Assembly: GCA_964016885.1 (NCBI GenBank)
Contig: OZ024741.1
Location: forward strand, 397,606,001 to 397,670,000
From: Eledone cirrhosa
Lineage: Eukaryota
Direction: 5' to 3'
Length of the DNA: 64,000 nt
Under the pieces are notes generated by a model that saw nothing but the letters and a program-made list of their open reading frames with translations, ran no database searches and had not been told where the DNA came from. This document shows, piece by piece, positions 803 to 63,432 of this stretch; position 1 is the first letter of the stretch; each line of letters starts with the position of its first letter. Both the position numbers and the translations under genes were made by a program.

Positions 803-2701
803 ATCATCATCATCATCATCATCAACGTTTAACGTCCGTGTTCCATGCTTGCATGGGTTTGGGGGTTTTCCCACTTGAGGCAAGAGTGATTGTCTTGCTC
901 GCATAGGACTGTCTGGCAGGTTTTCTACAGTTGGATGCCCTTCCTAACACCAACCACATTTACAGTGTGGGTCTGGGAGGTTTTTACCGTGTTGCCTACA
1001 CGGCCACATTACAGCGTGGACTGTGTGTTTTTTTGTCGTGACACCTACACGATCTCATTTGTTTCGGCCTGGATGGTGTGGCACCAACATAACTTTACAT
1101 AGAACGGGGTGGTGTGGGGGGGGGGGGGGGGGGGTATTTTGTTAGAGATGCCTACTGACTGTAGTAGGTTTTACTTTGTATTTAGGTAAGGCGGGTCTTC
1201 TCTATTACTGAGTACCGCCAAAGGTCTCGGTCCAGTGACATTGTCTTGGTGAGGTGTAAGTGTGTGAGGTCGGAGTTTATCAGCTCGTCCCAGGTTTTTC
1301 TGGGTCTGCCTATTCCGTGGCTACCGTCTATCTTTATTGCCCTGCACTTTGTTATACAGCTATCGTCCTTCATGCGCATCACGTGACCATACCAACGTAG
1401 CCTTCTCTCTAGTAAACAACATCTGATCCCTCTTATTTCTAATTTTTTCCTTAGTTCGTTTATGCTTTGTCGTTCACGTATATTACTATTACACATCCAG
1501 CGGAGCATGCAAGCTTCGTTTCTCTCTAGTCTGCGTATATCCTCTGCACACAATGCCCAGGTCTCACTGCCATGCAACATTGCTGTTCGTATGCAGGCAT
1601 CGTACAACCTGCCTTTCATTTTTAGGGAGAACCCTTTAGCGGCTAATAGTGGTATAAGCTCTCTGAACTTTTTCCACCCAGTTCTGACTCTAGCTACTGT
1701 ACTTTCAGAGCACCCTCCCCCACTGCTGATTTTGTCACCCAGGTAACAGAAGCTGTCCACTATTTCTATAGAACCCTCTGCGCAGTTGAAAGAGCTAGTA
1801 TTTTGTGGGCACTTGCTGCTACTTATTGCCCCAGAACACCGGCCACATGTAAAATCTACGTTCTTAGTTAGCTTACCTGTGATCCCACTACATCTTTTAT
1901 GCACCCAAACTTTGCATTTGGGACACAAAATGGAATTTCTACCTACGCCTTTCCTACACTCTGCGCATGGCCACTTCCCGGAGGGGACCGCCGCCTTATT
2001 TTCTTTCTTACAAACTAGAACTTTAGTCTTAGCCAGGTTAATTTTAAGGCCTTTTGATTCTAGGCCGTGCTTCCATGTTTGGAATTTCTTCTCTAGCTCG
2101 GCCATTGATTCAGCTATGAGCGTTAGATAATCTGCGTATAGGAGTTCCCATGGGCAGCCGGTCTTGAACTCCACTGTTATAGCCTGGAGGGCAATAATAA
2201 ATAGTAGGGGGCTAAGAACAGAGCCCTGATGAACACCAACTTTTACACTAAACTCTTCACTATATTCGTTGTTAATTCTAACCTTGCTGACTGTTTCTTT
2301 ATACATGGCTTGTATAGCTCTCACAAGCCATTCATCAACACCTAGTTTTTTAAGAGCCCACCAGATAATGGAACGGGGGACTCTGTCGAAGGCCTTCTCC
2401 AAGTCGACGAAAGCTAAGTATAGGGGTTTACTTTTAGCTAAGTACTTCTCCTGTAGTTGTCGTACAATGAAAAGAGCGTCTGTGGTACTTTTTCCTGACA
2501 CAAACCCGAACTGCATTTCATCTAGATCAATTCGCTCTCTGATTAGTTGCGCTATTACTTTTTCCGTGACCTTCATGACCTGGTCCATTAATTTAATGCC
2601 TCTATAGTTACTCCTATCTAGGGCATCTCCTTTACCCTTATAACAGTTAACGATAATGCTGCTACGCCAGTCCTTCGGAACAACCCCATTCTGTATGACT
2701 T
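803..2701 (-). mobile_element. 5'-truncated RTE-clade LINE (family A); RT ORF 1182-2588 with YADD mutated to YADY
   Basis: FVDLEKAFD, GVHQGSVLSPLLF, RRLRWYGHV motifs; 3' UTR and (TGA)n tail. Confidence 0.95.
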
Positions 2702-7600: not shown

Positions 7601-9350
7601 TCTGTTGTGTCTGTTGTGTGTCTGTAGTGTGTCTGTTGCGTCTGTAGTGTGTCTGTTGTGTGTCTGTTGTGTGTCTGTTGTGTCTGTTGTGTCTGTAGTG
7701 TGTCTGTTGTGTGTCTGTTGTGTCTGTAGTGTCTGTTGTGTCTGTAGTGTGTGTTGTGTCTGTTGTGTCTGTTGTGTGTCTGTTGTGTGTCTGTAGTGTC
7801 TGCTGTGTGTCTGCAGTGTGTCTGTAGTGTGTCTGTTGTGTGTCTAGTGTGTCTGTCGTGTCTGTCGTGTCTGTTGTGTCTGTTGTGTTTGCTGTGTCTG
7901 TTGTGTCTGTAGTGTGTCTGTTGTGTCTGTTGTGTGTCTGTTGTGTCTGTAGTGTGTCTGTTGTGTCTGTTGTGTCTGTTGTGTCTGATGTGTGTCTGTT
8001 GTGTCTGTCGTGTCTGTTGTGTCTGTAGTGTGTGTTGTGTCTGTAGTGTGTCTGTAGTGTGTCTGTTGTGTCTGTTGTGTGTGATGTGTCTGTTTTGTGT
8101 CTGTAGTGTCTGGTGTGTCTGTAGTGTGTGATGTGTCTGTTGTGTGTCTGTTGTGTCTGTTGTGTGTCTGTTGTGTGTCTAGTGTGTCTGTAGTGTGTCT
8201 AGTGTGTCTGTTGTGTGTGTCTGTTGTGTCTGTAGTGTCTGTTGTGTCTGTTGTGTCTAGTGTGTCTGTTGTGCGTCTGTTGTGTCTGTAGTGTGTGTTG
8301 TGTCTGCTGTGTCTTGTGTGTCTGTTGTGTCTGTTGTGTGTCTGGTGTGTCTGTAGTGTGTCTGTTGTGTGTCTAGTGTGTCTGTTGTGTCTGTTGTGTT
8401 TGCTGTGTCTGTTGTGTCTGGTGTGTCTGGTGTGTCTGTTGTCTGTTGTGTCTGTTGTGTGTCTGTAGTGTGTCTGTTGTGTCTGTTGTGTCTGTTGTGT
8501 GTCTGTTGTGTCTGTTGTGTGTCTGTTGTGTGTCTGTTGTGTCTGTAGTATGTGTTGTGCCTGTAGTGTGTCTGTTGTGTCTGTAGTGTCTGTTGTGTGT
8601 GATGTGTCTGTTGTGTGTCTGTAGTGTCTGTAGTGTGTGATGTGTCTGTTGTGTGTCTGTTGTGTCTGTTGTGTGTCTGTTGTGTGTCTAGTGTGTCTGT
8701 TGTGTGTCTAGTGTGTCTGTAGTGTGTCTAGTGTGTCTGTTGTGTCTGTTGTGTGTCTGTTGTGTCTGTTGTGTCTAGTGTGTCTGTTGTGCGTCTGTTG
8801 TGTCTGTAGTGTGTGTTGTGTCTGCTGTGTCTGTTGTGTGTCTATTGTGTCTGTAATGTGTCTGTTGTGTCTGTAGTGTGTCTGTAGTGTCTGTAGTGTG
8901 TCTGTTGTGTGTCTAGTGTATCTGTTGTGTCTGTTGTGTCTGTTGTGTGTCTGTAGTGTGTCTGTAGTGTGTCTGTTGTGTGTCTGTAGTGTGTCTGTTG
9001 TGTGTCTGTTGTGTGTCTGTTGTGTCTTTTGTGTCTGTTGTGTGTCTGTTGTGTCTGTTGTGTGTCTGTTGTGTCTGTAGTGTGTCTGTTGTGTGTCTGT
9101 TGTGTCTGTAGTGTGTGTTGTGTCTGTAGTGTCTGTTGTGTATGTAGTGTGTGATGTGTATGTTGTGTGTCTGTTGTGTGTCTGTAGGGTCTGTTGTGTC
9201 TGTAGTGTGTGATGTGTCTGTTGTGTGTGATGCGTCTGTGTATGTTTTGTCTATAGTGTGGGTGTGTATGTGTTGTGTGTATGTGTTTTGTATGTTGTGT
9301 GTGTCTATGTGTGCGTGTGTGTGTGTATGTGTGTCTATGTGTGCGTGTGT
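4637..9350. repeat. 4.7-kb compound satellite of 10-12-nt units (tgtgtctgt(t/a)g / tgtgtctag)
   Basis: Direct inspection; the V/C/S/L-rich ORFs are artefacts. Confidence 0.95.
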
Positions 9351-20069: not shown

Positions 20070-21779
20070 CATCATCATCATCATCACCGTTTTACGTCTG
20101 TTCTTCCACGCTAGCATGGGTTAGACGGGTTGTCCTGTTGTGGGCAGTGTCTGGTCGGCTGACCATGCCTTGCTCATACAGGAACTGATTTGGCTTGATT
20201 TCTACAGCTGGATGCCCTTCCTAACACCAACCTCATTTACAGTGAGTGCTGGGTGCTTTTCCGTGGCGCCTACACGTCCACTTTACAGTGTGGGCTGGGT
20301 GCTTTTTTGCCGTGGCACCTCCATGACCACCTTGCGGTGGGGTGTGTGGGGGCATATTGTCTATATGCTTCAGCTTGTACCCATGGGAGGTCGGGTACTC
20401 TGTATTACTGCGTGACGCCAGAAGTCACGGTCGTGTGTCATTGTCTTTGAGAGGTGCAATTGGGTAAGGTCGGCTTTTATCACCTCATCCCAGGTCATCT
20501 TGGGTCTCCCACGTGGTTTCCATCAACTTCTAGTGCTCTGCACCTTTTTATGCAGCTGTCATCCTTCATACGCATCACATGTCCATACCAGCGCAACCGC
20601 CTCTCCTGCACACAGCATTTGATTCCTCTTATGCTCAGTCTCTCTCTCAATTCATTTATGCTTTGTCGTTCACGTATATTACTGTTACACATCCATCAGA
20701 GCATGTAGGCTTCGTTTCTCTCTAATCTACGTAAGTCTTCCACCTTCAGCGCCCAGGTCTCACTACCATGCAACATCGCTGTTCGGATACACGCATCATA
20801 CAGTCTGCCTTTCATTCTGAGGGAGAAGCCTTTTGCAGCTAGCAGTGGTAGTAGTTCCCTAAACTTCTTCCATCCTGTTCTTACCCTAGTTATTGTACTT
20901 TCTGAACACCCACCTCCGCTGCTAATTCGGTCACCTAGGTAGCAGAAGCTGTCTACTGTTTCTACAGGGCCCTCCCAGAGATTGGTGGTACTTGTTTCCT
21001 GTGGCTGTTTGCTGCTTGCTGTCTCAGCACAGCTGCTGCATATGAAGCCTACATTCTTAATTAAGCTTCCTGAGATCCCGCTACATCTCTTGTGTACCCA
21101 TTGTTTGCATTTGGGGCAGAGAATGGAGTTCCTACCTACACCTTTCCTACATACTGAGCAAGGCCATTTCCCTGAGGGGATCTGGGTTCTGTTTTCTCGT
21201 CTACTTACAAGGACCTTAGTCTTTGTCATGTTGACTTTGAGACCCTTTCTTTCTAGTCCCTGCTTCCAAGTTTGGAATTTATTCTCTAGTTCTACCATAG
21301 ATTCAGCTATGAGTGCGAGGTCATCAGCATACAGGAGTTCCCATGGGCATCCGGTCTTAAACTCCTCCGTTATTGCCTGCAGGACTATGATGAACAGAAG
21401 AGGGCTAAGAACAGAGCCCTGGTGGACCCCAACCTGTACACTAAATTCCTCGCTATACTCATTGCTAATCCTAACTTTGCTGACTGCTCCCCTATACATG
21501 GCTTGTACCGCTTTCACAAGCCATTCATCTACTCCCAGTTTTCTAAGAGCCCACCAGATTACAGCACATGGAACTCTGTCAAAGGCTTTCTCAAGGTCGA
21601 CAAATGCCAAGTAGAGTGGCTTACTTTTAGTTAGGTACTTTTCCTGTAATTGCCTCACAAGGAAGAGGGCATCACTGGTGCCTCTTCCTGGTACAAACCC
21701 AAATTGCATCTCGTCTATATTCACCCGGTCCCTAATCAGCTGTGCTATAACTCTTTCTGTTACTTTCATGACCTGGTCA
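20070..21779 (-). mobile_element. 5'-truncated RTE LINE, sister subfamily B (frameshifted near 20695)
   Basis: ORFs 20696-21779 and 20495-20692 with LLYADD and PHD-type finger; 3' UTR and tail. Confidence 0.95.
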
Positions 21780-22040
21780 TATGTATGTGTATATGCATGT
21801 GTGCGTATATGTATGTGTATATGCGTGTGTGTGTGTGCAAATGTGTGTGTGTGCGTGTGTATGTGCATATGCATACATTTATATGGATGAGTATATAAAT
21901 ATAAACGTATAAACACAGATACAAAAATACACACTCACAGATACACATTCACACATACATTTACACAAACACATACATACACATACACTCAGCGTGGTTT
22001 TTTCACCCCCCCCTTCCTTTTACACATACATTAACACAGG

Positions 22041-25220: not shown

Positions 25221-25265
25221 TATATATATGTGTATGTCATTATCATGATAAATGCATGTATGTGT

Positions 25266-25565
25266 ATATAAAAGAAAAACGAACACAGATATATAGATAT
25301 ATGAGTTCAAATCGTAAGGGATCAGATTCGCTAAGGTGAAAAGAATACTAACTATAGACAATTGAGACAGGCAAACCCAATTGTCTATAGTTAGTATTCT
25401 TTTCACCTTAGCGAATCTGGTCCCTTACGATTTGAACTCATATATCTATATATCTGTGTTCGTTTTTCTTTTATATTCAATTATAATATACGGCTCGGAA
25501 ATATCTCTTTCTTAGAGCTATTTTGTCGTAAGAAACTATTTTGAGTTCCTAACTCAATATATACT
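25266..25565 (+). mobile_element. Fold-back element with 99-bp inverted arms (25266-25364/25378-25476)
   Basis: Near-perfect inverted duplication, 13-nt spacer, TA-rich flanks. Confidence 0.75.
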
Positions 25566-25879
25566 TTTGATATGTGTATATATATATGTATATATATATT
25601 TACACATACATGCATTTATCATGATAATGACATACACATATATATATATTTGCGTGCATCACATATATATATACCATTTATATGTAATATATGTAGACTT
25701 AGCACTTTCCTATAAACAAGTGCTTTTATGCCTCATATCATTGTATATTATTTTATCTGAAGAGAACACAATTTCTGTCCCAGGATGATTTTGTATTCGA
25801 AATACGTATAATAAAATATATGGAACTCTTATAACCATCTTTTATTTCATCTTTATTATATATATATATATATATGTAT

Positions 25880-26841: not shown

Positions 26842-28612
26842 ATCATCATCATCATCATCATCTTCGTTTAACATCCATCTTCCACGCTAGCATGAGTTAG
26901 ACGGGATTTGTTCCACTTGAGGCAAGGTTGGTCGGGTGACCGTGTCTTGCTCATATAGGACTATCTGGCAGGTTTTCTACGGCTGGATGCCCCTCCTAAC
27001 ACCAACCACATTTACAGTGTGGACTGGGAACTTTTTACCGTGTTACCTACAGGGCCACATTACAGCGTGGACTGTGTGTTATTTTTTTTTGTCGTGATAC
27101 CTACACGATCTCAATCTCATTATCTCATTTATTTGGACTGAATGTTGTGGTACTGACTTTACAGAGAGAGGGTGGTGTTGGTGGGAGTCGGAGGATGGGG
27201 TAGTGGATTGGGGTGTATATTTGGTTAAGAGGTGCCTACTGACTGTAGGTTTCGCTTTGTACATAGGCAAGGCGGGTCTTCTGTATTACTGCGTAGTGCC
27301 AAAGATCTCAGTCCAGTAACATTGTCTTAGAGAGGTGTAAGTGTGTAAGGTCTGAATTTATCAAGTCGTCCCAGGTTTTTCTGGGTCTACCTACTCCGTA
27401 ACTTCCATCAATTTTGATCGCCCTGCACTTTTTTATACAGCTGTCGTCTTTCATGCACATCATGTGGCCATACCAACGTAGTCTTCTCTCGAGTAAACAG
27501 CATCTGATCCCTCTTATTCCTAATTTCTCCCTTAGTTCATTTATGCTTTGCCGTTCACGTATATTACTATTACACATCCAACGGAGCATGCATGCTTCGT
27601 TCCTTTCCAGTCTGTGCATGTCCTCTGCACACAATGCCCATGTCTCACTGCCATGTAACATTGCTGTTCGTATACAGGCATCATACAATCTGCCTTTCAT
27701 TTTTAGAGAGAACCCTTTTGTGGCCAACAGCGGTATAAGCTCTCTGAACTTTTTCCATCCCGTTCTGACTTTGGCTATTGTACTTTCAGAACACCCTCCA
27801 CCACTGCTGATTTTATCACCTAGGTAACGGAAAGTGTCCACTATTTCTATAGAACCATCTGGGCAATAGAAGGAGCTAGTATCCAGTAGGTACTTGCTGC
27901 TTACTGCACCTGAGCATCGGCCACATATAAAATCTACGTTCTTAGATAGCTTACTTGTGATCCCACTACATCTTTTATGTACCCATAGTTTGCATTTAGG
28001 ACATAAAATGGAGTTTCTGCCTACTCCTTTCCTACACACTGAGCATGGCGATTTCCCTGAGGGCATCTGTGCCCTATTTTCCTTTCTACAAACTAGAACT
28101 TTAGTCTTAGACAAGTTAACTTTAAGGTCTTTTGATTCTAGGCCATGCTTCCATGTTTGGAATTTCTTCTCTAGTTCAGCCATAGATTCAGCTATGAGAG
28201 TTAGATCATCTGCATATAGGAGTTCCCATGGGCAGCCGGTCTTGAACTCCTCTGTTATAGCCTGAAGGGCAATAATAAATAGGAGGCGGCTAAGGACAGA
28301 GCCTTGATGAACGCCAACTTTTACACTAAATTCTTCACAATATTCATTGTTAATTCTAACCTTACTGACTGTTTCATTATACATAGCTTGTATAGCTCTC
28401 ACAAGCCATTCATCTACACCTAGTTTTCTAAGAGCCTACTAGATAATGGAGTGGGGGACTCTGTTAAAGGCTTTCTCCAGGTCTACAAAACTAAGTAGAG
28501 GAGTTTACTTTTAGCTAGGTACTTCTCCTGTAGTTGTCGTACAAGGAAAAGAGTGTCTGTGGTACTTTTACCTGACACAAACCCAAATTGCATTTCATCT
28601 AGATCAATTCGT
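26842..28612 (-). mobile_element. 5'-truncated RTE LINE (ORF 27308-28402, stops upstream)
   Basis: RT motifs, PHD-type finger, 3' UTR, tail. Confidence 0.95.
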
Positions 28613-28667: not shown

Positions 28668-28829
28668 CAGGTAAAATTCCGTTATAACAAATTTTTCAGT
28701 ATAATGAAATTTTTCTCACTCCCCAGCCACTCATTCGATGTGTTAGGTCCATCTCGTTATAAAGAATTTTTCATTACAATGAATTTGTTTGTATACCCCG
28801 TGAATTTCGTTATAACGGAATTTCACCTG
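28668..28829. mobile_element. Tc1/pogo-type MITE
   Basis: TIR caggtaaaattccgttataac / gttataacggaatttcacctg after TA. Confidence 0.75.
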
Positions 28830-28990
28830 CCCGTCCCCTCAATTTATCTTATTTCTCATTCTTTCTTCTGAGGAAGGACTAGCATCTGAAACGTTAAGAC
28901 CCTCTTCCTGCTATATCAAGCGTTAACCTAATATATCCCTTCCATATACTGTACCGATTGTGTTGTTATTTCTGTTTACCTTTTACATAC
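28830..28990 (+). mobile_element. Hammerhead-bearing Penelope-pLTR-like fragment; inverted partial copy 30211-30293
   Basis: 28905-28988 is the near reverse complement of 30211-30293. Confidence 0.7.
28864..28899 (+). ncRNA. Minimal type I hammerhead ribozyme motif
   Basis: TCTT-CTGAGGA-A-GGA(ctagca)TCT-GAAA-CG-TT-AAGA; palindromic AACGTT. Confidence 0.7.
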
Positions 28991-29007
28991 ATATATATGT
29001 ATATATA

Positions 29008-30199
29008 TATATTAATAAGTGTATTGAATTCTTTTACAATGGAATTAGCTCGAAGGAGGAAAATACCCCTGAGCCGTGTATAAACTAATATATATGATGA
29101 AACACAGATACCAACACATCTGTATATATATTGCAGAAGAAAATTTAGCCAGAATGAAGTATACTAATTATTATACTACAGTTTGTCCATATCGATTTAA
29201 AATAATAAATCAACAAAGACGAACTGCATTGCCAAAAGGCTATGATGTTTAGACACATTTAAATTTCAAAATCAAACCTGTTCCGTAGATAAGTTTAAAC
29301 TTTAAAATCCAAATATGTTTCGAGATAAATAAGTGTAGGAATATCATGTCCTGCTCTCCTCAGTAAACATCCAGGGACAAATTGATATGCTTCACTTCTA
29401 AATAATTTAAAAGACTGTGTGACGCACATGGTTTAACAGTTTCTAGCTAGTCTCATAACCGTACTGCTAGAAATAACAGTCGTATATATGAGGCGGCTTT
29501 CAGCTCAGACTAGGAGCAGTTATATTAATAAGTGTATTGAATTCTTTTACAATGGAATTAGCTCGAAGGAGGAAAATACCCCTGAGCCGTGTATAAACTA
29601 ATATATATGATGAAACACAAATTTTCTTTTGCAATATATATACAGATGTGTTGGTATCTGTGTTTCATCATATATATTAGTTTATACACGGCTCAGGGGT
29701 ATTTTCCTCCTTCGAGCTAATTCCATTGTAAAAGAATTCAATACACTTATTAATATAACTGCTCCTAGTCTGAGCTGAAAGCTGCCTCATATATACGACT
29801 GTTATTTCTAGCAGTACGGTTATGAGACTAGCTAGAAACTGTTAAACCATGTGCGTCACACAGTCTTTTAAATTATTTAGAAGTGAAGCATATCAATTTG
29901 TCCCTGGATGTTTACTGAGGAGAGCAGGACATGATCTTCCTACACTTATTTATCTCGAAACATATTTGGATTTTAAAGTTTAAACTTATCTACGGAACAG
30001 GTTTGATTTTGAAATTTAAATGTGTCTAAACATCATAGCCTTTTGGCAATGCAGTTCGTCTTTGTTGATTTATTATTTTAAATCGATATGGACAAACTGT
30101 AATATAATAATTAGTATACTTCATTCTGGCTAAATTTTCTTTTGCAATATATATACAGATGTGTTGGTATCTGTGTTTCATCATATATATTAGTTTATA
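29008..30199. mobile_element. Head-to-head pair of >1-monomer copies of a 513-nt non-coding unit (retrozyme-like)
   Basis: Direct repeat period 513 in both arms (29011/29524; 29619/30132); arms are reverse complements; hammerhead-like core at 29910-29971 (+) and 29307-29368 (-). Confidence 0.75.
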
Positions 30200-30430
30200 T
30201 ATATATATATATGTAAAAGGTTAACAGAAATAATAACACAACCGGTACAGTATATGGAAGGGATATATTAGGTTAACGCTTGATATAGCAGGAATATACA
30301 TACTAGTGTCCGAAAAAATATTAGGACTCTTTTCCTTTAATTTCAAGGATTAAACTAATATATTTCTTCATTGTATTGTGTCATTTACTTTGTTATTTCT
30401 GTTTACATTTTACACACATACATATATGTG

Positions 30431-30469
<39 letters not shown>

Positions 30470-30473
<4 letters not shown>

Positions 30474-30708
30474 AGGATGACCGATGGGTGAAGAAGTGCC
30501 AGGAAATGCCAGTTGAAGGAAGACGTGGTGGAGGTAGACCACAAAAAACATGGGCGGAGGTGGTGCGAACAGACCTCAGATCATTGAAGCTCACGGTGGA
30601 GATGACGAAGGACCGTGACGAGTGGAGAGATGCTGTGCTGAATAAGACTCATCCCACCCTTGCAAGCAGGGAAAAGCGGACGTAAAATGATGATGATGAT
30701 GATGATGA
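30470..30708 (+). mobile_element. 3' fragment of a second RTE family
   Basis: MEDDRWVKKC...GRRGGGRPQKTWAEVV...DRDEWR and (TGA)n tail. Confidence 0.85.
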
Positions 30709-38082: not shown

Positions 38083-39672
38083 ATCATCATCATCATCATC
38101 ATCGTTTAACGTCCGTGTTCCACGTTTGCATGGGTTTGGACGGGGGTTTTCCCACTTGAGGCAAGAGTGATTATCTTGCTTGCATAGGACTGTCTGGCAG
38201 GTTTTCTACAGCTGGATGCCCTTTCTAACACCAACCACATTTACAGTGTGGGGCTGGGAGGTTTTTACCGTGTTGCCTACACGACCACATTACAGCGTGG
38301 ACTATGTCTACACGATCTCATTTGTTTCGGCCTGGATGTTGTGGCACCAACATAACTTTACATTGAAGGAGCGGTGTGGATGGGGTGGGGGGTGGTGGGA
38401 TGGGGGTGTATTTTGTTAGAGATGCCTACTGGCTGTAGTAGGTTTTACTTTGTATTTAGGTAAGGCGGGTCTTCTCTATTACTGAGTGACATTGTCTTGG
38501 AGAGGTGTAAGTGTGTGAGGTCAGAATTTATCAGCTCGTCCCAGGTTTTTCTGGGTCTGCCTATTCCGTAGCTACCGTCTATCTTTATTGCCCTGCACTT
38601 TGTTATACAGCTGTCGTCTTTCATGCGCATCACGTGACCATACCAACGTAGCCTTCTCTCGAGTAAACAACATCTGATCCCTCTTATTTCTAATTTTTTT
38701 CCTTAGTTCGCTTATGCTTTGCCGTTCACGTATGTTACTATTACACATCCAGCGGAGCATGCAAGCTTCGTTCCTCTCTAGTCTGCGTATATCTTCTGCA
38801 CACAATGCCCAGGTCTCACTGCCATGCAACATTGCTGTTCGTATGCAGGCATCATACAACCTGCCTTTCATTCTTAGGGAGAACCCTTTAGCGGCTAATA
38901 GTGGTATAAGCTCTCTGAACTTTTTCCAACCACTTCTGACTCTAGCTACTGTACTTTCAGAGCACCCTCCCCCACTGCTGATTTTGTCGCCCAGGTAACG
39001 GAAGCTGTCCACTATTTCTATAGAACCCTCTGCGCAATTGAAAGAGCTAGTATTTTGTGGGCACTTGCTGCTACTTATTGCACCAGAGCACCGGCCACAT
39101 GTAAAATCTATGTTCTTAGTTAGCTTACCTGTGATCCCACTACATCTTTTATGCACCCATACTTTGCATTTGGGACATAAAATGGAGTTTCTACCTACAC
39201 CTTTCCTACACACTGAGCATGGCCATTTCCCGGAAGGGACCGGCGCCTTATTTTCTTTCCTACAAACTAGAACTTTAGTCTTAGCCAGGTTAATTTTAAG
39301 GCCTTTTGATTCTAGGCCGTGCTTCCATGTTTGGAATTTCTTCTCTAGCTCGGCCATTGATTCAGCTATGAGCGTTAGATCATCTGCGTATAGGAGTTCC
39401 CATGGGCAGCCGGTCTTGAACTCCTCTGTTATAGCCTGAAGGGCAATAATAAATAGAAGGGGGCTAAGAACAGAGCCCTGATGGACACCAACTTTTACGC
39501 TAAACTCTTCACTATATTCGTTGTTAATTCTAACCTTGCTGACTGTTTCTTTATACATGGCTTGTATAGCTCTGACAAGTCATTCGTCAACACCTAGTTT
39601 TCTAAGAGCCCACCAGATAATGGAACGGGGGGGGGGGACTCTGTCAAAGGCTTTCTCCAAGTCAACAAAAGC
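38083..39672 (-). mobile_element. 5'-truncated RTE LINE family A (ORF 38572-39558, frameshifted)
   Basis: RT motifs, PHD-type finger, 3' UTR. Confidence 0.95.
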
Positions 39673-41356: not shown

Positions 41357-44300
41357 GATAACTTTGATAGGTTTCGGCCAGTATTGGCCCAGGCCATGTC
41401 TAACTTAATAGCACCACCTGGCGAAGTCTTACAAATCAGTGTTTGGGCACCATGGCCCACTCGAGCAGAGAGTTATTGTTTACGGAGGCATATCCGGGTG
41501 TAGGAGGCTTATCTGGGATTTCTCGAAGGAATTTATCCAAAGACTTCTTGAACTTGATGGGGTCTGTCTCTGCTTTGATGTGTGTTGGTTTAATGTTAAA
41601 GAGTGCAGGGCCAATTGAGGCGAAATAATTGTGCTGTATTGTTGTTATGCGAGTGGGATTTTTGTCGTGGGCGGATAGCACGGGGCTCAAGCCTTGGTGT
41701 ACGCTAAAGATGATGCCAACATCATTTGGGCAAAGCTGATGGAATATTTTCCACATCATACAGATAATGTAGCGCTCACGGCGACGTTGAAGAGAATAAA
41801 GTTTGAGCTTTTCTAATCGACCCCAATAGTCAAGGCCTGTCATGCCAACTATCTTTTTTGTAATTGACCTTTTGGGTGCTTCAACTTTCATGATACTTTG
41901 TTTCGTGTGGGGTGACCACAGTGGACAACAGTATTCAAGGTGGGGTCAGGCAAAAGTGGAGAAGAGAAGGACAACAGTGTGGATATCTCTCGACTGGAAA
42001 GTTCTGAGAATCCAGGAACACATTCTGGGGCCATATCAACTTTGCTGTTTATATGAGTTGTCCACAATTACTCCCAGGTCTCTGATGTTATTGGAAGCCA
42101 CCAGAGTTTCACCCGAAGGAAGAGAGTATGGTAGTTTCAGAGCATCCTTTTTTCCAAAGTGGATTAGTTCAAATTTATCCTCATTCAACAGCATATTATT
42201 CATTCTGCCCATTGGATAACAGCCAGTAGGTCTGACTGAAGGCAAGTCCGGTCATCCACCTCATTGATGACCCTTTGAAGCTTGGAATCATCTGCAAAGA
42301 TTCTTATGTTACTGTGTTTTGATGATGTCAGTAATGTAGATGATGAAAAGAAGTGGGCCCAACACAGTGCCTTGTGAGACGCCACTGCGGACTTTGGCAG
42401 GGCTTGATTTTACTCCTTCGACTACAACATGCTGGGTTCTGCCTGTCAGGAAACATTTGATCCACTGTAGTAACCTTCCAGAGACACCAACATTGGATAG
42501 TTTTTTCAGTAGAATCTTTTGATCAACCCTGTCGAAGGCCTTGCTGAAATCAAGGTAGATGACATCAGTTTTGGAGCCCTCTCCCAAGGCTCTCAAAACA
42601 TTGTCAAAGTGATGCAGGAGCTGCGTTAGGCAGTCCCTTCCATTACGGAACCCATGTTGGCTGGAGTTCAGCAGGCCATTGCTTTCAAGAAAGTGGGTTA
42701 TTCGTGATCTCACCACCCTCTCAAATACCTTGATAATATGAGAGGTGAGTGAGATCGGAAGGTAGTTCACTGCAAGGGACTTGTTTCCCTTTTTGAAGAC
42801 TGGGACAGAAAGTTTTCAGGAATATAGCCAGTGTCCAGTGAGTTCCTCTACAGATTAGCAAGAGGAGTTGCAAGTTGGTGTCGACACACCTTCAGGACAT
42901 AAGCAGGGAACCTGTCGGTGTCTACTGCTGAATTGTGTTTAATTTCGTTTATTGCCGCTAAGACATCAGGGGCGCCAAACGTTATGTCTGATATAGTGTG
43001 TTGGGGGTTAATATCACTGATATGGCCCAGATCGGCCATATCAGGGTTGCTGAAAATAGAGCAGTATTGTTTCTGCAGTATCTCGCCCATGGTTTTGGCA
43101 TTGTCCTGGAGTGTGCCATTTTCATCAACTAGGGGCCAACAGTGGATACGGTGACCTTGTGTTTTTTAGCGAATGAGTAGAACACTTTGGGGTTGAGTTT
43201 GATTTTCTCAATGGCCCATCTCTCTTCAGCTATTCTCTGGTTATTGATGATGGTCATCATGCATTGCTGGAGGTTATATTTTTTTGACTCAAGCAGGGTG
43301 ATAGCCATCGAATGTGTGTGTTGCTGTTGGCAGTATTTTAGTGTGTTAATTTTTTTGTTTGTTCTTTTTATTTTTCTGATAATTGTTTTTCTGTTTTGGG
43401 GGACACTACACTTGGTTTTTTTCACAGGTTTTGGTGGGGTGTGTTTTGTACATATATTTGTGACAGTGTATACAAAGATCTGCCAAGATGTTTTGATGTT
43501 GGTGGAAGTGTGTGCGTGTGTAAAAGACCAGTCGACATGTGATAGTTCGTTCATAATTCCACCCCAGTTGGCATTGTAGAGATTCATGTTATCAAATGGG
43601 TGGGCTGGAGAGAGGACCCTGGGATTAGCTTTCGGCTGGTGGAATCTCAGGTTACAAAGAACCATGTCATGGTCTGAGAGAAGGGTTTTTTCCACTGTAA
43701 TATTAGGGATAGTGTTAGTGTCGTTATAAACACTAGATCCAGAATGTTCTTCTGATGCCGTGTTGGTGCAAGGACAAGTTGGGACAAGAAAAACTCATTC
43801 ATGAAGTCAAGAAGTGACTCGACAGCCTCTTTGTCAGTGGTTGAGACTGTGGAGCCTGGTTTCAAACTACATGTAGACCAATCGACACAGGGTAGATTAA
43901 AGTCTCCCATCAAAAGTATGTTGCTAGAATGGCACTGTTTAATAAAGCATTTAATACTGTTGAGGCATTCTTTGAAGCAGATTATGGGGGTCTGTGGTGG
44001 CCTATAGAGCCCAACTAATGTCAGGTCATTGGCTTTATTGTGCACAGTGACTGATTCACAGTATCCATTAGAGAATGTTGTGTTGCCATCTGCCGTAAAG
44101 GAATCATGCAGGAAGATGCCAGTTCCATCCTTCCTTCTGCCAACACGATCCGCACGGATGGTTGTGAAATTTCTCACTCTTACTTCGGCCTCCAAGTGGG
44201 AGTTGTCAAGGTGGGTCTCAGTAAGAATGAAGAAGGGGATGTGAAATGGATGGTTACCAACCCAATCCTCAATGAATTGGGTCTTCCATTTCTGTGCATT

Positions 44301-44410
44301 GATGGATGGGCTGATACCTTGTGTATTGAGTAAGAATGTGGAGGCTAGTGTGGTGGCTGGTTTTGACTGTTGCAGGGGGCTTGTTTTGTGATTGGACTTG
44401 TTTTGTGATT
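41357..44410 (-). mobile_element. Decayed CR1-type LINE ORF2 (APE endonuclease + RT)
   Basis: GLYRPP, LMGDFNLP, NILDLVF; NYLPISLTS, IYLDFSKAFD, GVSQGTVLGPLLF, IFADDSKL, YSLQRRRER; several frameshifts. Confidence 0.9.
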
Positions 44411-45313
44411 GTATGTGTCTATATATATATGTGTGTATGTGTCTATATATATATATATATATGTGTGTATGTGTCTATATATATATGTGTATGTGTCTAT
44501 ATATATGTGTGTGTGTGTGTCTATATATATATATGTGTATGTGTCTATATATATATATATATGTATGTGTCTATATATACATGTGTATGTGTCTATATAT
44601 ATATGTGTATGTGTCTATATATATATATGTGTCTATATATATATACATGTGTATGTGTCTATATATATATACATGTGTATGTGACTATATATATATATAG
44701 TTGTGTGTGTGTCTATATATATATATATATATAGTTGTGTGTGTGTCTATATATATATATGTGTATGTGTCTATATATATATATATATGTGTATGTGTCT
44801 ATATATATATGTGTATGTGTCTATATATATATATGTGTATGTGTCTATATATATATATATGTATGTGTCTATATATATATATATGTATGTGTCTATATAT
44901 GTGTGTATGTGTCTATATATATATGTGTATGTGTCTATATGTGTGTGTCTATATATGTGTGTATGTGTCTATATATGTATATGTGTCTATATATATATGT
45001 GTATGTGTCTATATATGTGTGTATGTGTCTATATATGTGTGTATGTGTCTATATATATATATATATATGTGTATGTGTATGTGTCTATATATACATGTGT
45101 ATGTGTCTATATATATATGTGTATGTGTGTCTATATATATGTGTATATATATATGTGTGTATGCATCTATATATATATATATGTGTGTGTATGTGTCTAT
45201 ATATACATGTGTATGTGTCTATATATATATGTGTATGTGTCTATATATATGTGTATGTGTCTATATATATATATATAAATGTGTGTGTGTATGTGTCTAT
45301 ATATATATATATG

Positions 45314-49490: not shown

Positions 49491-52400
49491 TATCTAGTAC
49501 CACACTATCTAGTACTACACTATCTAGTACTACACTATCTAGTACCACACTATCTAGTACCACACTATCTAGTACTACACTATCTAGTACCACACTATCT
49601 AGTACTACACTATCTAGTACCACACTATCTAGTACCACACTATCTAGTACCACACTATCTAGTACTACACTATCTAGTACCACACTATCTAGTACTACAC
49701 TATCTAGTACCACACTATCTAGTACCACACTATCTAGTACTACACTATCTAGTACTACACTATCTAGTACCACACTATCTAGTACCACACTATCTAGTAC
49801 CACACTATCTAGTACCACACTATCTAGTACCACACTATCTAGTACTACACTATCTAGTACCACACTATCTAGTACTACACTATCTAGTACCACACTATCT
49901 AGTACCACACTATCTAGTGCCACACTATCTAGTGCCACACTATCTAGTACCACACTATCTAGTACTACACTATCTAGTACCACACTATCTAGTACCACAC
50001 TATCTAGTACCACACTATCTAGTACCACACTATCTAGTACTACACTATCTAGTACCACACTATCTAGTACCACACTATCGGGTGCCACACTATCTAGTGC
50101 CACACTATCTAGTACCACACTATCTAGTACCACACTATCTAGTACCACACTATCTAGTGCCACACTATCTAGTGCCACACTATCTAGTACCACACTATCT
50201 AGTACCACACTATCTAGTACTACACTATCTAGTGCTACACTATCTAGTACTACACTATCTAGTACCACACTATCTAGTACTACACTATCTAGTGCTACAC
50301 TATCTAGTACCACACTATCTAGTACCACACTATCTAGTACTACACTATCTAGTGCTACACTATCTAGTGCTACACTATCTAGTGCTACACTATCTAGTGC
50401 TACACTATCTAGTACTACACTATCTAGTGCTACACTATCTAGTACCACACTATCTAATACCACACTATCTAGTGCCACACTATCTAGTGCCACACTATCT
50501 AGTGCCACACTATCTAGTACCACACTATCTAGTGCCACACTATCTAGTGCCACACTATCTAGTGCTACACTATCTAGTGCTACACTACCTAGTACCACAC
50601 TATCTAGTACCACACTATCTAGTGCTACACTATCTAGTACCACACTATCTAGTGCCACACTATCTAGTGCCACACTATCTAGTGCCACACTATCTAGTAC
50701 CACACTATCTAGTGCTACACTATCTAGTACTACACTATCTAGTGCTACACTATCTAATACCACACTATCTAGTGCCACACTATCTAGTACTACACTATCT
50801 AGTACCACACTATCTAGTACTACACTATCTAGTACCACACTATCTAGTGCTACACTATCTAATACCACACTATCTAGTGCCACACTATCTAGTGCCACAC
50901 TATCTAGTACTACACTATCTAGTACCACACTATCTAGTGCTACACTATCTAGTACCACACTATCTAGTGCTACACTATCTAGTGCTACACTATCTAGTAC
51001 TACACTATCTAGTGCTACACTATCTAATACCACACTATCTAGTGCCACACTATCTAGTGCCACACTATCTAGTACTACACTATCTAGTGCTACACTATCT
51101 AGTGCTACACTATCTAGTACTACACTATCTAGTACCACACTATCTAGTACCACACTATCTAGTGCTACACTATCTAGTACCAAACTATCTCGTGCTACAC
51201 TATCTAGTACTACACTATCTAGTACCACACTATCTAGTACCACACTATCTAGTACTACACTATCTAGTACCACACTATCTAGTACCACACTATCTAGTGC
51301 TACACTATCTAGTACCACACTATCTAGTGCCACACTATCTAGTGCCACACTATCTAGTACCACACTATCTAGTACTACACTATCTAGTACCACACTATCT
51401 AGTACCACACTATCTAGTACCACACTATCTAGTACCACACTATCTAGTACCACACTATCTAGTACTACACTATCTAGTACCACACTATCTAGTACCACAC
51501 TATCTAGTGCTACACTATCTAGTACCACACTATCTAGTGCTACACTATCTAGTACCACACTATCTAGTACTACACTATCTAGTGCTACACTATCTAGTGC
51601 TACACTATCTAGTACTACACTATCTAGTGCTACACTATCTAGTACCACACTATCTAGTACCACACTATCTCGTGCTACACTATCTAGTACCATACTATCT
51701 AGTACCACACTATCTAGTACCACACTATCTAGTACCACACTATCTAGTACCACACTATCTAGTACCACACTATCTAGTGCTACACTATCTAGTACTACAC
51801 TATCTAGTACCACACTATCTAGTACCACACTATCTCGTGCTACACTATCTAGTACCACACTATCTAGTACCACACTATCTAGTACCACACTATCTAGTGC
51901 TACACTATCTAGTACCACACTATCTAGTACCACACTATCTCGTGCTACACTATCTAGTACCACACTATCTAGTACCACACTATCTAGTACCACACTATCT
52001 AGTACCACACTATCTAGTACTACACTATCTAGTACCACACTATCTAGTACCACACTATCTCGTGCTACACTATCTAGTACCACACTATCTAGTACCACAC
52101 TATCTAGTACCACACTATCTAGTGCCACACTATCTAGTGCCACACTATCTAGTACCACACTATCTAGTACCACACTATCTAGTACTACACTATCTAGTGC
52201 TACACTATCTAGTACTACACTATCTAGTACCACACTATCTAGTACTACACTATCTAGTGCTACACTATCTAGTACCACACTATCTAGTACCACACTATCT
52301 AGTACTACACTATCTAGTGCTACACTATCTAGTGCTACACTATCTAGTACTACACTATCTAGTGCTACACTATCTAGTACCACACTATCTAGTACCACAC

Positions 52401-54200
52401 TATCTAGTGCTACACTATCTAGTACCACACTATCTAGTACTACACTATCTAGTGCTACACTATCTAGTACTACACTATCTAGTGCTACACTATCTAGTAC
52501 CACACTATCTAGTACTACACTATCTAGTACCACACTATCTAGTACTACACTATCTAGTGCTACACTATCTAGTACTACACTATCTAGTGCTACACTATCT
52601 AGTACCACACTATCTAGTACCACACTATCTAGTACTACACTATCTAGTACCACACTATCTCGTGCTACACTATCTAGTACCACACTATCTAGTACCACAC
52701 TATCTAGTACCACACTATCTAGTACTACACTATCTAGTACCACACTATCTAGTACTACACTATCTTGTGCTACACTATCTAGTACCACACTATCTAGTAC
52801 CACACTATCTAGTACCACACTATCTAGTACTACACTATCTAGTGCTACACTATCTAGTACCACACTATCTAGTACCACTCTATCTAGTGCTACACTATCT
52901 AGTACCACACTATCTAGTACCACACTATCTAGTGCTACACTATCTAGTGCTACACTATCTAGTACTACACTATCTAGTGCTACACTATCTAGTACCACAC
53001 TATCTAGTGCTACACTATCTAGTGCTACACTATCTAGTGCTACACTATCTAGTACCACACTATCTAGTACCACACTATCTAGTGCTACACTATCTAGTGC
53101 TACACTATCTAGTACTACACTATCTAGTGCTACACTATCTAGTACCACACTATCTAGTACCACACTATCTAGTGCTACACTATCTAGTGCTACACTATCT
53201 AGTACTACACTATCTAGTGCTACACTATCTAGTACCACACTATCTAGTGCTACACTATCTAGTGCTACACTATCTAGTACCACACTATCTAGTACCACAC
53301 TATCTAGTACTACACTATCTAGTACTACACTATCTAGTACTACACTATCTAGTGCTACACTATCTAGTACCACACTATCTAGTACCACACTATCTAGTAC
53401 CACACTATCTAGTGCTACACTATCTAGTACCACACTATCTCGTACTACACTATCTAGTGCTACACTATCTAGTACCACACTATCTAGTGCTACACTATCT
53501 AGTACCAAACTATCTCGTACTACACTATCTAGTGCTACACTATCTAGTACCACACTATCTAGTGCTACACTATCTAGTGCTACACTATCTAGTACCACAC
53601 TATCTAGTGCTACACTATCTAGTGCTACACTATCTAGTACCACACTATCTAGTACCACACTATCTAGTACCACACTATCTAGTACCACACTATCTAGTAC
53701 CACACTATCTAGTACCACACTATCTCGTACTACACTATCTAGTGCTACACTATCTAGTACCACACTATCTAGTGCTACACTATCTAGTACCACACTATCT
53801 AGTACCACACTATCTAGTGCTACACTATCTAGTACCACACTATCTCGTACTACACTATCTAGTGCTACACTATCTAGTACCACACTATCTAGTGCTACAC
53901 TATCTAGTACCACACTATCTAGTGCTACACTATCTAGTGCTACACTATCTAGTACCACACTATCTAGTACCACACTATCTAGTACCACACTATCTAGTAC
54001 CACACTATCTAGTACCACACTATCTAGTACCACACTATCTCGTACTACACTATCTAGTGCTACACTATCTAGTACCACACTATCTAGTACCACACTATCT
54101 AGTACTACACTATCTAGTGCTACACTATCTAGTACTACACTATCTAGTGCTACACTATCTAGTACTACACTATCTAGTACTACACTATCTAGTACTACAC
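49491..54200. repeat. 15-nt satellite (tatctagt(a/g)c(c/t)acac)n, about 314 copies
   Basis: Exact period 15 over 4710 bp. Confidence 0.98.
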
Positions 54201-54202
54201 TC

Positions 54203-59572: not shown

Positions 59573-59894
59573 TTTTCTTACAAATTTCATTACATTTCAT
59601 CATTAGTCCCCTTTTCTCTCTCACCCCCTCCCCTATCGCCCTATATATATTTTTTTTTTTGGGGGGGGGGGGCACAAACCCTCCATCTCAACTCTACTTT
59701 TGAAAAGCAGAACTGCGAAACCGGCAAAGGAACCAAATAAATATATAAATTTTATAAAAAGACTCCAGTTGCATTTTCGATTTCATCTTTTGTCCTTATA
59801 CTTTCACTCGTGTAGGACACCTCGGTTATTTTTCATTTTGTGAAAAAAACCTCACTTTCTAATATATATATACATATACATATATATATATATA

Positions 59895-62800: not shown

Positions 62801-63432
62801 AAAAATTAGAGATAAGAGGGATCAGATGTTGTTTACTCGAGAGAAGGCTGCGTTGGTATGGACACGTGATGCGCATGAAAGTCGATAGCTGTATTACAAA
62901 GTGCAGGGCAATAAAGATAGACGGTAGCCACGGAATAGGCAGACCTAGAAAAACATGGGATGAGCTGATAAACTCCGACCTCACACACTTACACCTCTCC
63001 AAGACAATGTCACTGGACCGTGACCTTTGGCGGTACTCAGTAACAGAGAAGACCCGCCTTGCCAGTAGGCATCTCTAACAAAATACACCCCGTCCCGCCA
63101 CCACCCCCACCCCATCCACACCACCCCGTTCTATGTAAAGTTATGTTGGTGCCGCGCCATCCAGGCCGAAACAAATGAGATCGTGTAGGTGTCACGACAA
63201 AAAAACACACAGTCCACGCTGTAATGTGGCCGTGTAGGCAACACGGTAAAAACCTCCCAGACCCACACTGTAAATGTGGTTGGTGTTAGGAAGGGCATCC
63301 AACTGTAGAAAACCTGCCAGACAGTCCTATGCGAGCAAGACAATCACTCTTGCCTCAAGTGGGACTACCCCCGTCCAAACCCATGCAAGCGTGGAACACG
63401 GACGTTAAACGTTGATGATGATGATGATGATA
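59895..63432 (+). mobile_element. Near-full-length RTE-clade LINE (family A)
   Basis: APE (GTINVGTL, CIQETRW, SAYAPQ, IAGDLNGHVG, VDYIL, SQHRL), RT (FVDLEKAFD, YADD, FRYLG), 3' UTR, (TGA)n tail. Confidence 0.97.
59963..63078 (+). pseudogene. APE-RT polyprotein with two +1 frameshifts (A7 run 60596-60602; G4 run 61076-61079)
   Basis: Removing one base in each run joins ORFs 59840-60607, 60684-61085 and 61099-63078. Confidence 0.85.

What the first reader, a model, noticed from the sequence alone, without database searches (positions are those of the whole stretch)
29008..30199. 513-nt unit present as more than one circularly permuted monomer on both strands: footprint of a circular ribozyme RNA
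Seen: left arm about 1.19 monomers (minus) and right arm about 1.13 monomers (plus), exact period 513 in both, different start points, only a few mismatches between arms, both outer ends in (TA)n, and no ORF. Each arm has CTGAGGA-GAG...CTC-GAAA-CATA-TT with a weak wobble-rich stem I, plus a multi-stem domain (29765-29832). Known: animal non-LTR retrozymes are hammerhead tandem repeats yielding circRNAs, usually reported shorter than this. Inference: twin-primed, rolling reverse transcription of a 513-nt circle, i.e. a young and unusually long retrozyme-like family.
Basis: partly seen in the sequence, partly recalled or inferred. Interest (0 to 1): 0.75.

Follow-up and report, generated by a model that had tools for sequence, protein, structure and literature searches.

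The report
Penelope-style hammerhead retrozyme insertion
This is one young copy of a 513-base, protein-free mobile repeat that carries a hammerhead (predicted self-cutting) RNA motif and lies in a TA microsatellite as two mirror-image arms, the same layout as coding Penelope-like retrotransposons of this genome, whose enzyme likely wrote it; it is an ordinary member of a known class, and a circular RNA template is possible but not shown.

Summary
The repeat geometry is real. Arm 29008-29622 (615 nt, minus sense) meets arm 29619-30199 (581 nt, plus) head to head. The period is exactly 513, the arms differ at 5 positions, both outer ends lie in (TA)n, and no frame exceeds 59 codons.

The supported type I fold has a perfect 8-bp stem I and a 29-bp helix III, and would cut after C30026, not 29966. 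Two sister families in the same genome (559 nt and about 0.5 kb) keep this fold with compensatory changes.

The "different start points" are not free permutation points. In 41 of 44 family arms the 3' end falls at one of two fixed sites 71 nt apart. 5' ends vary. In 29 of 35 head-to-head pairs one arm uses each site. This is the published signature of Penelope-like element (PLE) insertion: tail, inverted 5'-truncated copy, AT-rich target. A coding PLE pair in this genome shows the same layout.

So this is a new family of metazoan non-LTR retrozyme, likely PLE-mobilised. A circular template is neither needed nor excluded. The unit length is not unusual (51-972 bp are reported). Interest is low to moderate.

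The parts
29008..29622 (-). Left arm of the insertion, 615 nt. Read on the minus strand it is unit positions 483-513, 1-513, 1-71. Its 3' end, with the tail, is the outer left end.
29008..29078 (-). 71-nt 'tail' (unit 1-71 repeated after a full unit). It is present on this arm only. The boundary with (TA)n is ambiguous by 2-4 nt.
29619..30199 (+). Right arm, 581 nt: unit positions 446-513, 1-513. Its 3' end without tail (position 513) is the outer right end.
29619..29622 (.). Head-to-head junction. The arms overlap by 4 nt (AAAT/ATTT microhomology). Positions 446-482 are present only in the right arm.
29907..30034 (+). Type I hammerhead motif of the right arm. Stem I is 29907-14/30027-34. The core CUGAGGA is 29915-21. 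Stem II is 29922-24/29954-56 with a 29-nt loop. GAAA is 29957-60. Helix III is the hairpin 29960-30025. The predicted cut is after C30026.
29244..29371 (-). The same hammerhead motif in the left arm. The core starts at 29363 and the predicted cut is 3' of C29252 on the minus strand. There is one difference from the right arm, in the stem II loop.
29690..29718 (+). Hairpin 1 (GGCUCAGGGG..CCUCCUUCGAGCU), directly 3' of the tail-less end site (513|1). It is conserved in families B and C, with a covarying inner stem.
29759..29777 (+). Hairpin 2 (CUGCUC..GAGCUG), directly 3' of the tailed end site (position 71). Families B and C have an ACGGCUC..GAGCU hairpin at the same place.
   Evidence: sequence
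29000..29012 (.). (TA)n at the left outer end (target microsatellite).
30200..30212 (.). (TA)n at the right outer end (target microsatellite).
28905..28999 (.). Left flank repeat F, the inverted copy of 30213-30294. It is not part of the element and is likely an older palindromic repeat around the target microsatellite.
30213..30294 (.). Right flank repeat F', 95.7% identical to the left one over 94 nt. A third, 75% copy lies at 30321-30425.

Best explanation
The stretch 29008-30199 is one insertion of a 513-nt non-coding retroelement with a type I hammerhead motif (a metazoan non-LTR retrozyme). It was likely made by the reverse transcriptase-endonuclease of a Penelope-like element (PLE) that cut a (TA)n site and primed DNA synthesis from both cut strands.

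Shown:
- The element is a dispersed family (at least 1631 candidate matches) with variable 5' ends and two fixed 3' ends 71 nt apart.
- Pairs of arms lie head to head, one arm ending at each site, in TA microsatellites.
- The hammerhead fold is kept with compensatory changes in two sister families.
- Coding PLEs (RT plus C-terminal GIY-YIG) abound in this genome, and one such pair has the same layout.

Inferred:
- A PLE enzyme binds the retrozyme RNA at two related GCUC..GAGC hairpins and starts cDNA just 5' of either one. The 'tail' is the stretch between the two starts.
- The two cDNAs run towards the RNA 5' end for more than one unit, on a multimeric or a circular template.
- They are joined in the middle by microhomology.
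- The hammerhead would cut unit-length RNA out of multimeric transcripts. Its part in transposition is not known.
For: Family and ends. One search gave 1631 candidates, of which 40 were scored, yielding 124 matches at 86-100% identity. In 44 arms, 22 3' ends fall at position 71/72 and 19 at 512/513, with 3 elsewhere. None falls at the three other internal (TA)3+ tracts. 5' ends are scattered from 14 to 483.

Pairs. One tailed and one tail-less arm occur in 14 of 16 independent family A pairs, 8 of 10 family B pairs and 7 of 9 family C pairs. Two pairs are tail/tail and 4 are irregular.

Target. TA repeats lie on both sides in 21 of 23 pair loci. One further locus has only (TA)3 on one side, and one has none on one side.

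Hammerhead. All core positions are present. On 25 sequences of families A and B, 93.4% of cells pair, against 17-55% when the partners are slid. Stem I has both-side changes in 5 of 8 pairs and stem II in 2 of 3. Family B also has its own G-C to A-U double changes. Core position N7 varies (U/A/G) while the rest of the core is fixed. C3-G8 is replaced by U3-A8 in family B. Family C has CUGAUGA with different stems. The scan found 0 hits in 50 shuffles. The monomer folds with z = -4.97.

PLE link. The GIY-YIG search gave 10596 candidates, and all 150 scored were over the cut-off. Frames carry RVT_1 plus a C-terminal GIY-YIG domain. Locus L044 holds a head-to-head pair of such frames with (TA)n at both outer ends and a 64-nt extension on one arm only.

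Literature. A PLE protein extends both strands, starts at two adjacent internal sites whose interval is the genomic 'tail', and prefers AT-rich DNA (PMC11167929, main text read). Inverted 5'-truncated copies, a tail at one end and a (TA)n bias are described for PLEs (PMC8557442, passages). Retrozymes are described as PLE derivatives (preprint 10.64898/2026.07.22.740005, abstract and Results part 1).
Against: - No coding PLE with a pLTR or 3' end homologous to this unit was found in the 38 PLE loci examined, so the helper is unnamed.
- No Rfam hammerhead model reaches its threshold. There was no hit at E up to 10 on the window locus, and only Hammerhead_3 at 14.3 bits, E = 5, on family C.
- Self-cleavage is untested.
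- Stem II has only 3 pairs.
- The covariation rests on few independent events (two or three families plus subfamilies), and the tested structure was drawn from one of the aligned sequences.
- Both end sites sit in short UAUA microhomology with the (TA)n target, so annealing may contribute. The cited in vitro work saw no homology at the start site.
- The loci sampled are the best-scoring ones and are therefore biased to full units.
- The inverted flanks at this locus remain unexplained.
Confidence: 0.8

Rival explanations
1. One reading: the template was a 513-nt circular RNA made by hammerhead cutting and ligation. Each arm longer than one unit is then the product of reverse transcriptase running round the circle (rolling reverse transcription), primed from both DNA strands. 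This refines the best explanation rather than opposing it.
For: Arms pass through the predicted cleavage site and exceed one unit in 27 of 44 sampled arms, up to 1505 nt. No array longer than about 2.9 units was seen among the scored hits, so some process has to regenerate multimers. Circular retrozyme RNAs are reported in other animals (PMC7229834, passages). The monomer closes on itself through stem I and folds well.
Against: No RNA data could be had. The fixed ends are explained by site-specific initiation on any template topology. Partial tandems are also the rule for 3-4 kb coding PLEs, including L044 here, where no small circle is invoked. In the cited in vitro work, hammerhead mutants did not change insertion, and unprocessed RNA was the main substrate (PMC11167929). 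Units inside one insertion differ about as much as copies at different loci, so a one-template test has no power. The sample is biased to full units.
Confidence: 0.3
2. A DNA-level fold-back at this locus: a single arm with its flank was copied in inverted orientation during break repair, or by snap-back of the cDNA. This would also explain the inverted flanks.
For: The flanks 28905-29012 and 30187-30294 are inverted copies. A second pair in the window (family C) also has inverted flanks.
Against: The two arms end at different unit positions (71 against 513), as do 29 of 35 pairs elsewhere. After masking (TA)n, the other 15 family A pairs scored showed no inverted flank, and among the 9 family B pairs scored only L059 gave a weak signal. 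The flank copies differ more (4 of 94) than the element arms (5 of 615), which suggests an older flank repeat.
Confidence: 0.07
3. The unit is simply the pseudo-LTR of a coding Penelope-like element, and this locus is a solo or truncated piece of that element.
For: pLTRs carry hammerheads, and truncated PLE copies look like this (PMC4209133 and PMC8557442, passages).
Against: All 124 matches are contiguous unit-to-unit arrays with a period of 513 and no intervening frame. None of the 38 PLE loci has the unit next to its frame as a pLTR. The only hits were separate insertions about 2 kb away.
Confidence: 0.05
4. An assembly artefact: a false palindrome made from chimeric or fold-back reads.
For: Palindromes and PLE arrays are known trouble spots for assemblers (PMC8557442, passage). 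The public contigs laid here were too short to bridge anything.
Against: The same architecture recurs at 35 independent pair loci of three families on many contigs, with different junction positions and the same end rule.
Confidence: 0.03

Closest known systems
Metazoan non-LTR retrozymes (Cervera and de la Pena 2020, PMC7229834; Li, Clavereau and Pollet 2026 preprint 10.64898/2026.07.22.740005)
   Same: A non-coding, AT-rich unit with one type I hammerhead per unit, in short head-to-tail arrays, with thousands of dispersed copies, in a genome that also holds coding PLEs.
   Different: The unit is 513 nt, against about 170-400 nt in the 2020 paper but within the 51-972 bp of the preprint. Helix III is a 29-bp hairpin rather than 1-2 bp with a small loop. 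Stem II has only 3 pairs and a 29-nt loop. Circular RNA is not shown here.
Penelope-like elements, insertion architecture (Craig et al. 2021, PMC8557442; Frangieh et al. 2024, PMC11167929)
   Same: 5' truncation, partial tandems, an inverted 5'-truncated copy head to head, an extension ('tail') at one end only, two defined start sites, an AT-rich or (TA)n target, and both strands extended.
   Different: There is no RT or GIY-YIG frame in the unit. The tail is 71 nt (83 and about 72 nt in the sister families, 64 nt in the coding pair L044), against the 30-40 bp reported. Short UAUA homology to the target is present at both start sites.
Minimal hammerheads of PLE pLTRs, including the U3-A8 core variant (Cervera and de la Pena 2014, PMC4209133)
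   Same: Type I topology. The sister family B carries the U3-A8 covariation reported for Cercyon elements. Paired motifs on opposite strands 100-700 bp apart were also noted there.
   Different: Those motifs have a long helix II, a 4-5-bp helix I and little or no helix III, and probably act as dimers. This one has a long helix III and an 8-bp helix I, so it is predicted to act as a monomer, more like the fungal and protist PLE variants described there.
Twin priming of LINE-1 (recalled, not read here)
   Same: An inversion made by priming cDNA from both strands of one target break.
   Different: In twin priming the second primer anneals at variable internal sites, and the two parts do not overlap on the RNA. 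Here both outer ends are fixed sites, and the arms overlap over a full unit.

Membership tests
Hammerhead ribozyme, type I | Conserved core: C3 U4 G5 A6 N7 G8 A9, G12 A13 A14, A15.1-U16.1, H17 | tested here: met
   CUGAGGA 29915-21, GAAA 29957-60, U30025, C30026. Family B has UUGANAA (U3-A8) and family C has CUGAUGA.
Hammerhead ribozyme, type I | Three helices round the core, kept by compensatory changes | tested here: met
   93.4% of cells paired (17-55% when slid). Stem I has 5 of 8 pairs and stem II 2 of 3 pairs with both-side changes. Helix III has mostly one-sided changes (1 of 29 both-sided). Caveats: few independent events, and the structure was drawn from one of the rows.
Hammerhead ribozyme, type I | Match to a curated covariance model (Rfam hammerhead clan CL00010, which includes RF00008 Hammerhead_3) | tested here: not met
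   No hit at gathering score. No hammerhead hit at E up to 10 on 28800-30500. Hammerhead_3 scored 14.3 bits, E = 5, on family C. Large loops in stems II and III probably cost the score.
Hammerhead ribozyme, type I | Self-cleavage at H17; loop-loop contacts between helices I and II | not testable with these tools
   Needs transcription assays. No loop 1 exists in a type I motif whose stem I is closed only by the rest of the unit.
Metazoan non-LTR retrozyme | Non-coding unit with one type I hammerhead, in head-to-tail repeats, dispersed in many copies, with low GC | tested here: met
   Longest frame 59 codons and GC 32.4%. Arrays up to 2.9 units. At least 1631 candidate matches on many contigs.
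Metazoan non-LTR retrozyme | Expressed as linear and circular unit-length RNA | not testable with these tools
   No RNA run is listed for this stretch.
Metazoan non-LTR retrozyme | Monomer size about 170-400 nt (2020 description) | tested here: not met
   513 nt. The 2026 preprint widens the range to 51-972 bp, so this is not disqualifying.
PLE-mobilised (non-autonomous Penelope-like) element | Fixed 3' ends with an optional tail; variable 5' truncation | tested here: met
   41 of 44 arms end at unit position 71/72 or 512/513; 5' ends run from 14 to 483.
PLE-mobilised (non-autonomous Penelope-like) element | [quoted passage not shown] | tested here: met
   29 of 35 independent pairs in three families have one tailed and one tail-less arm. 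The coding PLE pair L044 does too.
PLE-mobilised (non-autonomous Penelope-like) element | AT-rich or (TA)n target | tested here: met
   TA repeats on both sides in 21 of 23 pair loci.
PLE-mobilised (non-autonomous Penelope-like) element | Coding PLEs present in the same genome | tested here: met
   GIY-YIG: 10596 candidates, 150 of 150 scored over the cut-off. RVT_1 plus C-terminal GIY-YIG frames of 515-938 aa. Most RVT_1 scores lie just under Pfam's cut-off (26.8-29.9 against 29.6 bits).
PLE-mobilised (non-autonomous Penelope-like) element | Sequence homology of the unit to the pLTR or 3' end of a coding PLE | tested here: inconclusive
   None found in 38 PLE loci out of more than 10000 candidates.
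LINE-1-type twin priming | Second priming site variable and internal; the two segments do not overlap on the RNA | tested here: not met
   The outer end of the second arm is fixed at position 513, and the arms overlap by a full unit.

The most novel reading that the evidence does not exclude
Each insertion is written by a two-headed Penelope-type enzyme complex that sits on one small circular hammerhead RNA. One head starts at hairpin 1 and the other at hairpin 2, each primed by one strand of a broken TA microsatellite. Both run round the circle more than once. That would explain three things at once: why nearly every pair has exactly one tailed arm, why arms exceed one unit, and why short arrays are renewed without long master arrays.
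Probability: 0.2. Interest if true: 0.6.

Novelty: new member of a known kind. Interest (0 to 1): 0.3.

Why it matters
On its own the locus is ordinary: it is one more species-specific retrozyme family.

Its use is as clean genomic data on how Penelope-type enzymes work. Three related non-coding families and a coding PLE in one genome show the following:
- The same two start sites, 64-83 nt apart.
- In the three non-coding families, each start site lies directly 5' of a GCUC..GAGC hairpin.
- One arm uses each site in 29 of 35 non-coding pairs, and in the coding pair too.

This agrees with the two start sites and both-strand extension seen in vitro for one lizard PLE. It adds a pairing rule that the papers read here mention only as 'often one end'.

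The families also give natural hammerhead variants for ribozyme work: a long helix III, a 3-bp helix II, and a U3-A8 core.

Tried and rejected
- **Rfam.** No hammerhead at gathering score on the window or on 12 loci. The E-value search on the locus gave only hairpin-driven microRNA look-alikes from the palindrome.
- **RNA evidence.** No RNA holder is listed for the unit. The three runs that hold it are one sample, kept as contigs of 60-90 nt. These bridge neither the centre nor the outer junctions, so there was no test of the inversion or of expression.
- **Helper element.** blastn, tblastn and motif scans of 18 and then 20 GIY-YIG loci found no coding PLE that shares the unit. Hits in L033, L042 and L089 were separate insertions.
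- **One-template test.** Within-insertion differences (0-25) are of the same order as shared non-majority variants (0-7, private 0-2), so the test has no power.
- **RNA-editing scars.** A>G makes up 28 of 310 substitutions, which is no excess.
- **5' ends near the cleavage site.** In family A, 8 of 44 arm 5' ends lie 9-22 nt 3' of the predicted cut, but these come from only 5 independent loci. In family B 7 of about 50 starts do so, and in family C 2 of 18 lie at the site itself. This is a hint of cut templates and no more.
- **Inverted flanks as a general product of insertion.** Rejected: of 16 family A and 9 family B pairs scored after masking (TA)n, only the window's own locus shows it clearly and one B locus (L059) weakly.
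- **Flank repeat F.** An own-genome search rang nothing, not even the query itself. There were only 3 copies in the window and a few fragments in 302 kb of loci.
Rejected: the alternative has perfect stems that covary.

Full report
**Observation**

- The repeat finder gives direct repeats exactly 513 nt apart inside each arm: 29008-29109 against 29521-29622 at 99%, and 29619-29686 against 30132-30199 at 100%.
- It gives an inverted repeat of 544 nt at 99% (29079-29622 against 29656-30199) with 33 nt between the arms.
- Phased on a unit taken as 29687-30199, the left arm read on the minus strand is positions 483-513, 1-513, 1-71 (615 nt). The right arm is 446-513, 1-513 (581 nt).
- The arms differ at 5 positions. 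No frame in a unit trimer exceeds 59 codons. Unit GC is 32.4% against 39.7% for the window.
- TA runs abut both outer ends.

**The ribozyme**

No Rfam model reports a hammerhead here, at gathering score or at E up to 10. The fold has these parts:
- Stem I: GAUGUUUA (29907-14) with UAAACAUC (30027-34).
- Core: CUGAGGA.
- Stem II: GAG/CUC with a 29-nt loop.
- GAAA.
- Helix III: a 29-bp hairpin opening with A15.1-U16.1 and C-G.
- C17 at 30026.

The unconstrained minimum-energy fold already contains stems I and III. The hammerhead-constrained fold costs 3.9 kcal/mol more.

A descriptor scan (core, at least 3 bp in stem II, GAAA, U-H, a 6-nt perfect stem I) hits both arms and one further site in the window, and nothing in 50 shuffles.

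**Comparative support for the fold**

Two sister families turned up in the same genome.
- Family B has a 559-nt unit and at least 3456 candidate matches. It aligns over the ribozyme and keeps the fold with a wholly different stem I (GGUACCUG/CAGGUACC), stem II GCA/UGC, and the core UUGANAA, that is U3-A8 in place of C3-G8.
- Inside family B, two subfamilies carry their own G-C to A-U double changes in stem I. The one core position that varies is N7.
- Counted on 25 sequences, 93.4% of cells pair, against 17-55% with slid partners. Stem I has 5 of 8 pairs and stem II 2 of 3 pairs changed on both sides.
- Family C has at least 2649 candidates. One truncated pair lies in the window at 25263-25562. 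It has CUGAUGA, stem I UCACCCA/UGGGUGA, a 4-bp stem II and a 5-bp helix III.

Two caveats apply. The number of independent events is small, and the structure tested was derived from one of the rows. The U3-A8 variant is already in print for PLE hammerheads (PMC4209133, passages read).

**The family and its ends**

The unit has at least 1631 candidate matches in the 3.0-Gb genome. The 40 scored candidates gave 124 matches at 86-100% identity on many contigs. The 30 loci held show the following:
- Of 44 arms (identical sequences counted once), 22 end at unit position 71/72 and 19 at 512/513. Three end elsewhere.
- None ends at the three other internal (TA)3+ tracts.
- 5' ends run from 14 to 483, with a group that merges into (TA)n near position 495.
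- Arm length reaches 1505 nt (2.9 units).
- Family B behaves alike: 15 of 28 arms end at position 83 and 9 at 555-558 of 559.

Where arms lie head to head, one arm has the extension and the other lacks it. This holds in 14 of 16 independent family A pairs, 8 of 10 family B pairs and 7 of 9 family C pairs. Two pairs are tail/tail and four are irregular. The centre junctions overlap by 0-12 nt in most pairs. TA repeats flank 21 of 23 pair loci on both sides.

So the window's two 'start points' are the two canonical ends of the family, not arbitrary points on a circle.

**What makes such insertions**

The pattern matches Penelope-like elements point by point.
- Craig et al. (PMC8557442, passages) describe 5' truncation, partial tandems, an adjacent inverted 5'-truncated copy, a 30-40-bp tail often at one end only, and (TA)n targets.
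- Frangieh et al. (PMC11167929, main text) show in vitro that a PLE protein cuts and extends both strands. It starts cDNA at two adjacent internal sites whose interval is the genomic tail, and it prefers AT-rich DNA. Hammerhead mutants did not change insertion.

This genome is full of PLEs.
- The GIY-YIG profile gave 10596 candidates, and all 150 scored were above the cut-off.
[quoted passage not shown] Most RVT_1 scores lie just under Pfam's cut-off.
- Locus L044 is a head-to-head pair of two 551-aa RT plus GIY-YIG frames with 2.5-kb arms at 98-99%. (TA)n lies at both outer ends, and a 64-nt extension is on one arm only.

The non-coding family A insertion and this coding PLE insertion therefore have the same build.

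In families A, B and C each of the two end sites lies directly 5' of a GCUC..GAGC hairpin. Hairpin 1 covaries between A (GGGG/CC.CC) and B and C (GAAA/UUUC). I infer that these hairpins are what the enzyme recognises.

**What remains open**

1. *The helper.* None of 38 PLE loci shares sequence with the unit.
2. *Template topology.* Arms longer than one unit need a multimeric or circular template.
   - No array above about 2.9 units was seen among the scored hits, which mildly favours a renewing process such as rolling synthesis on a circle.
   - However, the sample is biased, coding PLEs make partial tandems too, and no RNA data could be had.
   - Tests for a single template per insertion and for RNA-editing scars had no power or were negative.
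3. *The inverted flanks.*
   - They are peculiar to this locus and to the family C pair in the window. After masking (TA)n, 15 other A pairs show none, and only one of 9 B pairs (L059) gives a weak signal.
   - The flank copies differ more than the element arms (4 of 94 against 5 of 615).
   - I therefore read them as an older palindromic repeat around the target microsatellite. A fold-back made at insertion is not excluded.

**Verdict**

This is a young new family of a known kind, a metazoan non-LTR retrozyme. It was likely mobilised by a Penelope-like element and inserted in the standard two-armed PLE manner.
- Unit length is within the 51-972 bp reported in the 2026 preprint (Results part 1 read).
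- Unusual details are the long helix III and the 3-bp helix II of the hammerhead, and a tail of 71 nt.
- Earlier notes of this scan report two other retrozyme families in the same genome with the same reading. They are not independent evidence.

Noticed in passing
window 25263-25562: A second two-armed insertion, of sister family C. The arms 25263-25364 and 25378-25479 are 98% complementary with a 13-nt gap, and the plus arm runs on about 83 nt as a tail. Its flanks (25221-25270 and 25597-25646) are also an inverted repeat, 50 nt at 98%.
   Followed up: partly
window 25757-25820 (+): A minimal type I hammerhead of the classic PLE/retrozyme kind. Stem I is UAUUUUAU/AUAAAAUA, the core is CUGAAGA, stem II has about 7 pairs, and helix III is 1 bp with the palindromic loop UACGUA. 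The predicted cut is after A25810. It lies in a fragment of about 180 nt between TA runs. It was found by my descriptor scan, not by Rfam.
   Followed up: no
window 28905-29012 / 30187-30294 / 30321-30425: Flank repeat F occurs in three copies round the insertion, each ending in (TA)n. Two of them form the inverted flanks. Public contigs give it a word depth 10-100 times that of the 513-nt unit. The own-genome DNA search skipped it entirely, so it is probably a very abundant short repeat.
   Followed up: partly
window 49491-54201: A 15-bp minisatellite (TATCTAGTACCACAC) of 314 copies at 92% match. It is open in several frames on both strands, so it shows up as false ORFs of 1600 codons.
   Followed up: no
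window 1182-2699(-), 20696-21934(-), 27308-28435(-), 38572-39579(-), 61003-63078(+); 43647-44474(-), 59816-60607(+): Several decayed LINE-type copies. Some frames carry RVT_1 followed by a PHD finger, and others carry an AP-type endonuclease. One lies 0.5 kb left of the finding.
   Followed up: no
L044 (G000:C1:438609200-438619199): A coding PLE in the textbook arrangement. An inverted 5'-truncated copy lies head to head with a plus copy. A third plus copy is offset by about 4.1 kb. The tail-less end reads ...CUUUAUA, and the 64-nt tail ends in ...CUAAUA before (TA)n. The same 3' end and tail sequence also lies beside the family C copy in L072.
   Followed up: partly
L039 about 9028-9090 (+): Another minimal hammerhead-like motif (CUGAAGA, 6-bp stem II, GAAA, stem I AGUCA/UGACU), directly followed by (TA)n. 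It lies 3.8 kb downstream of a 1096-aa RT frame.
   Followed up: no
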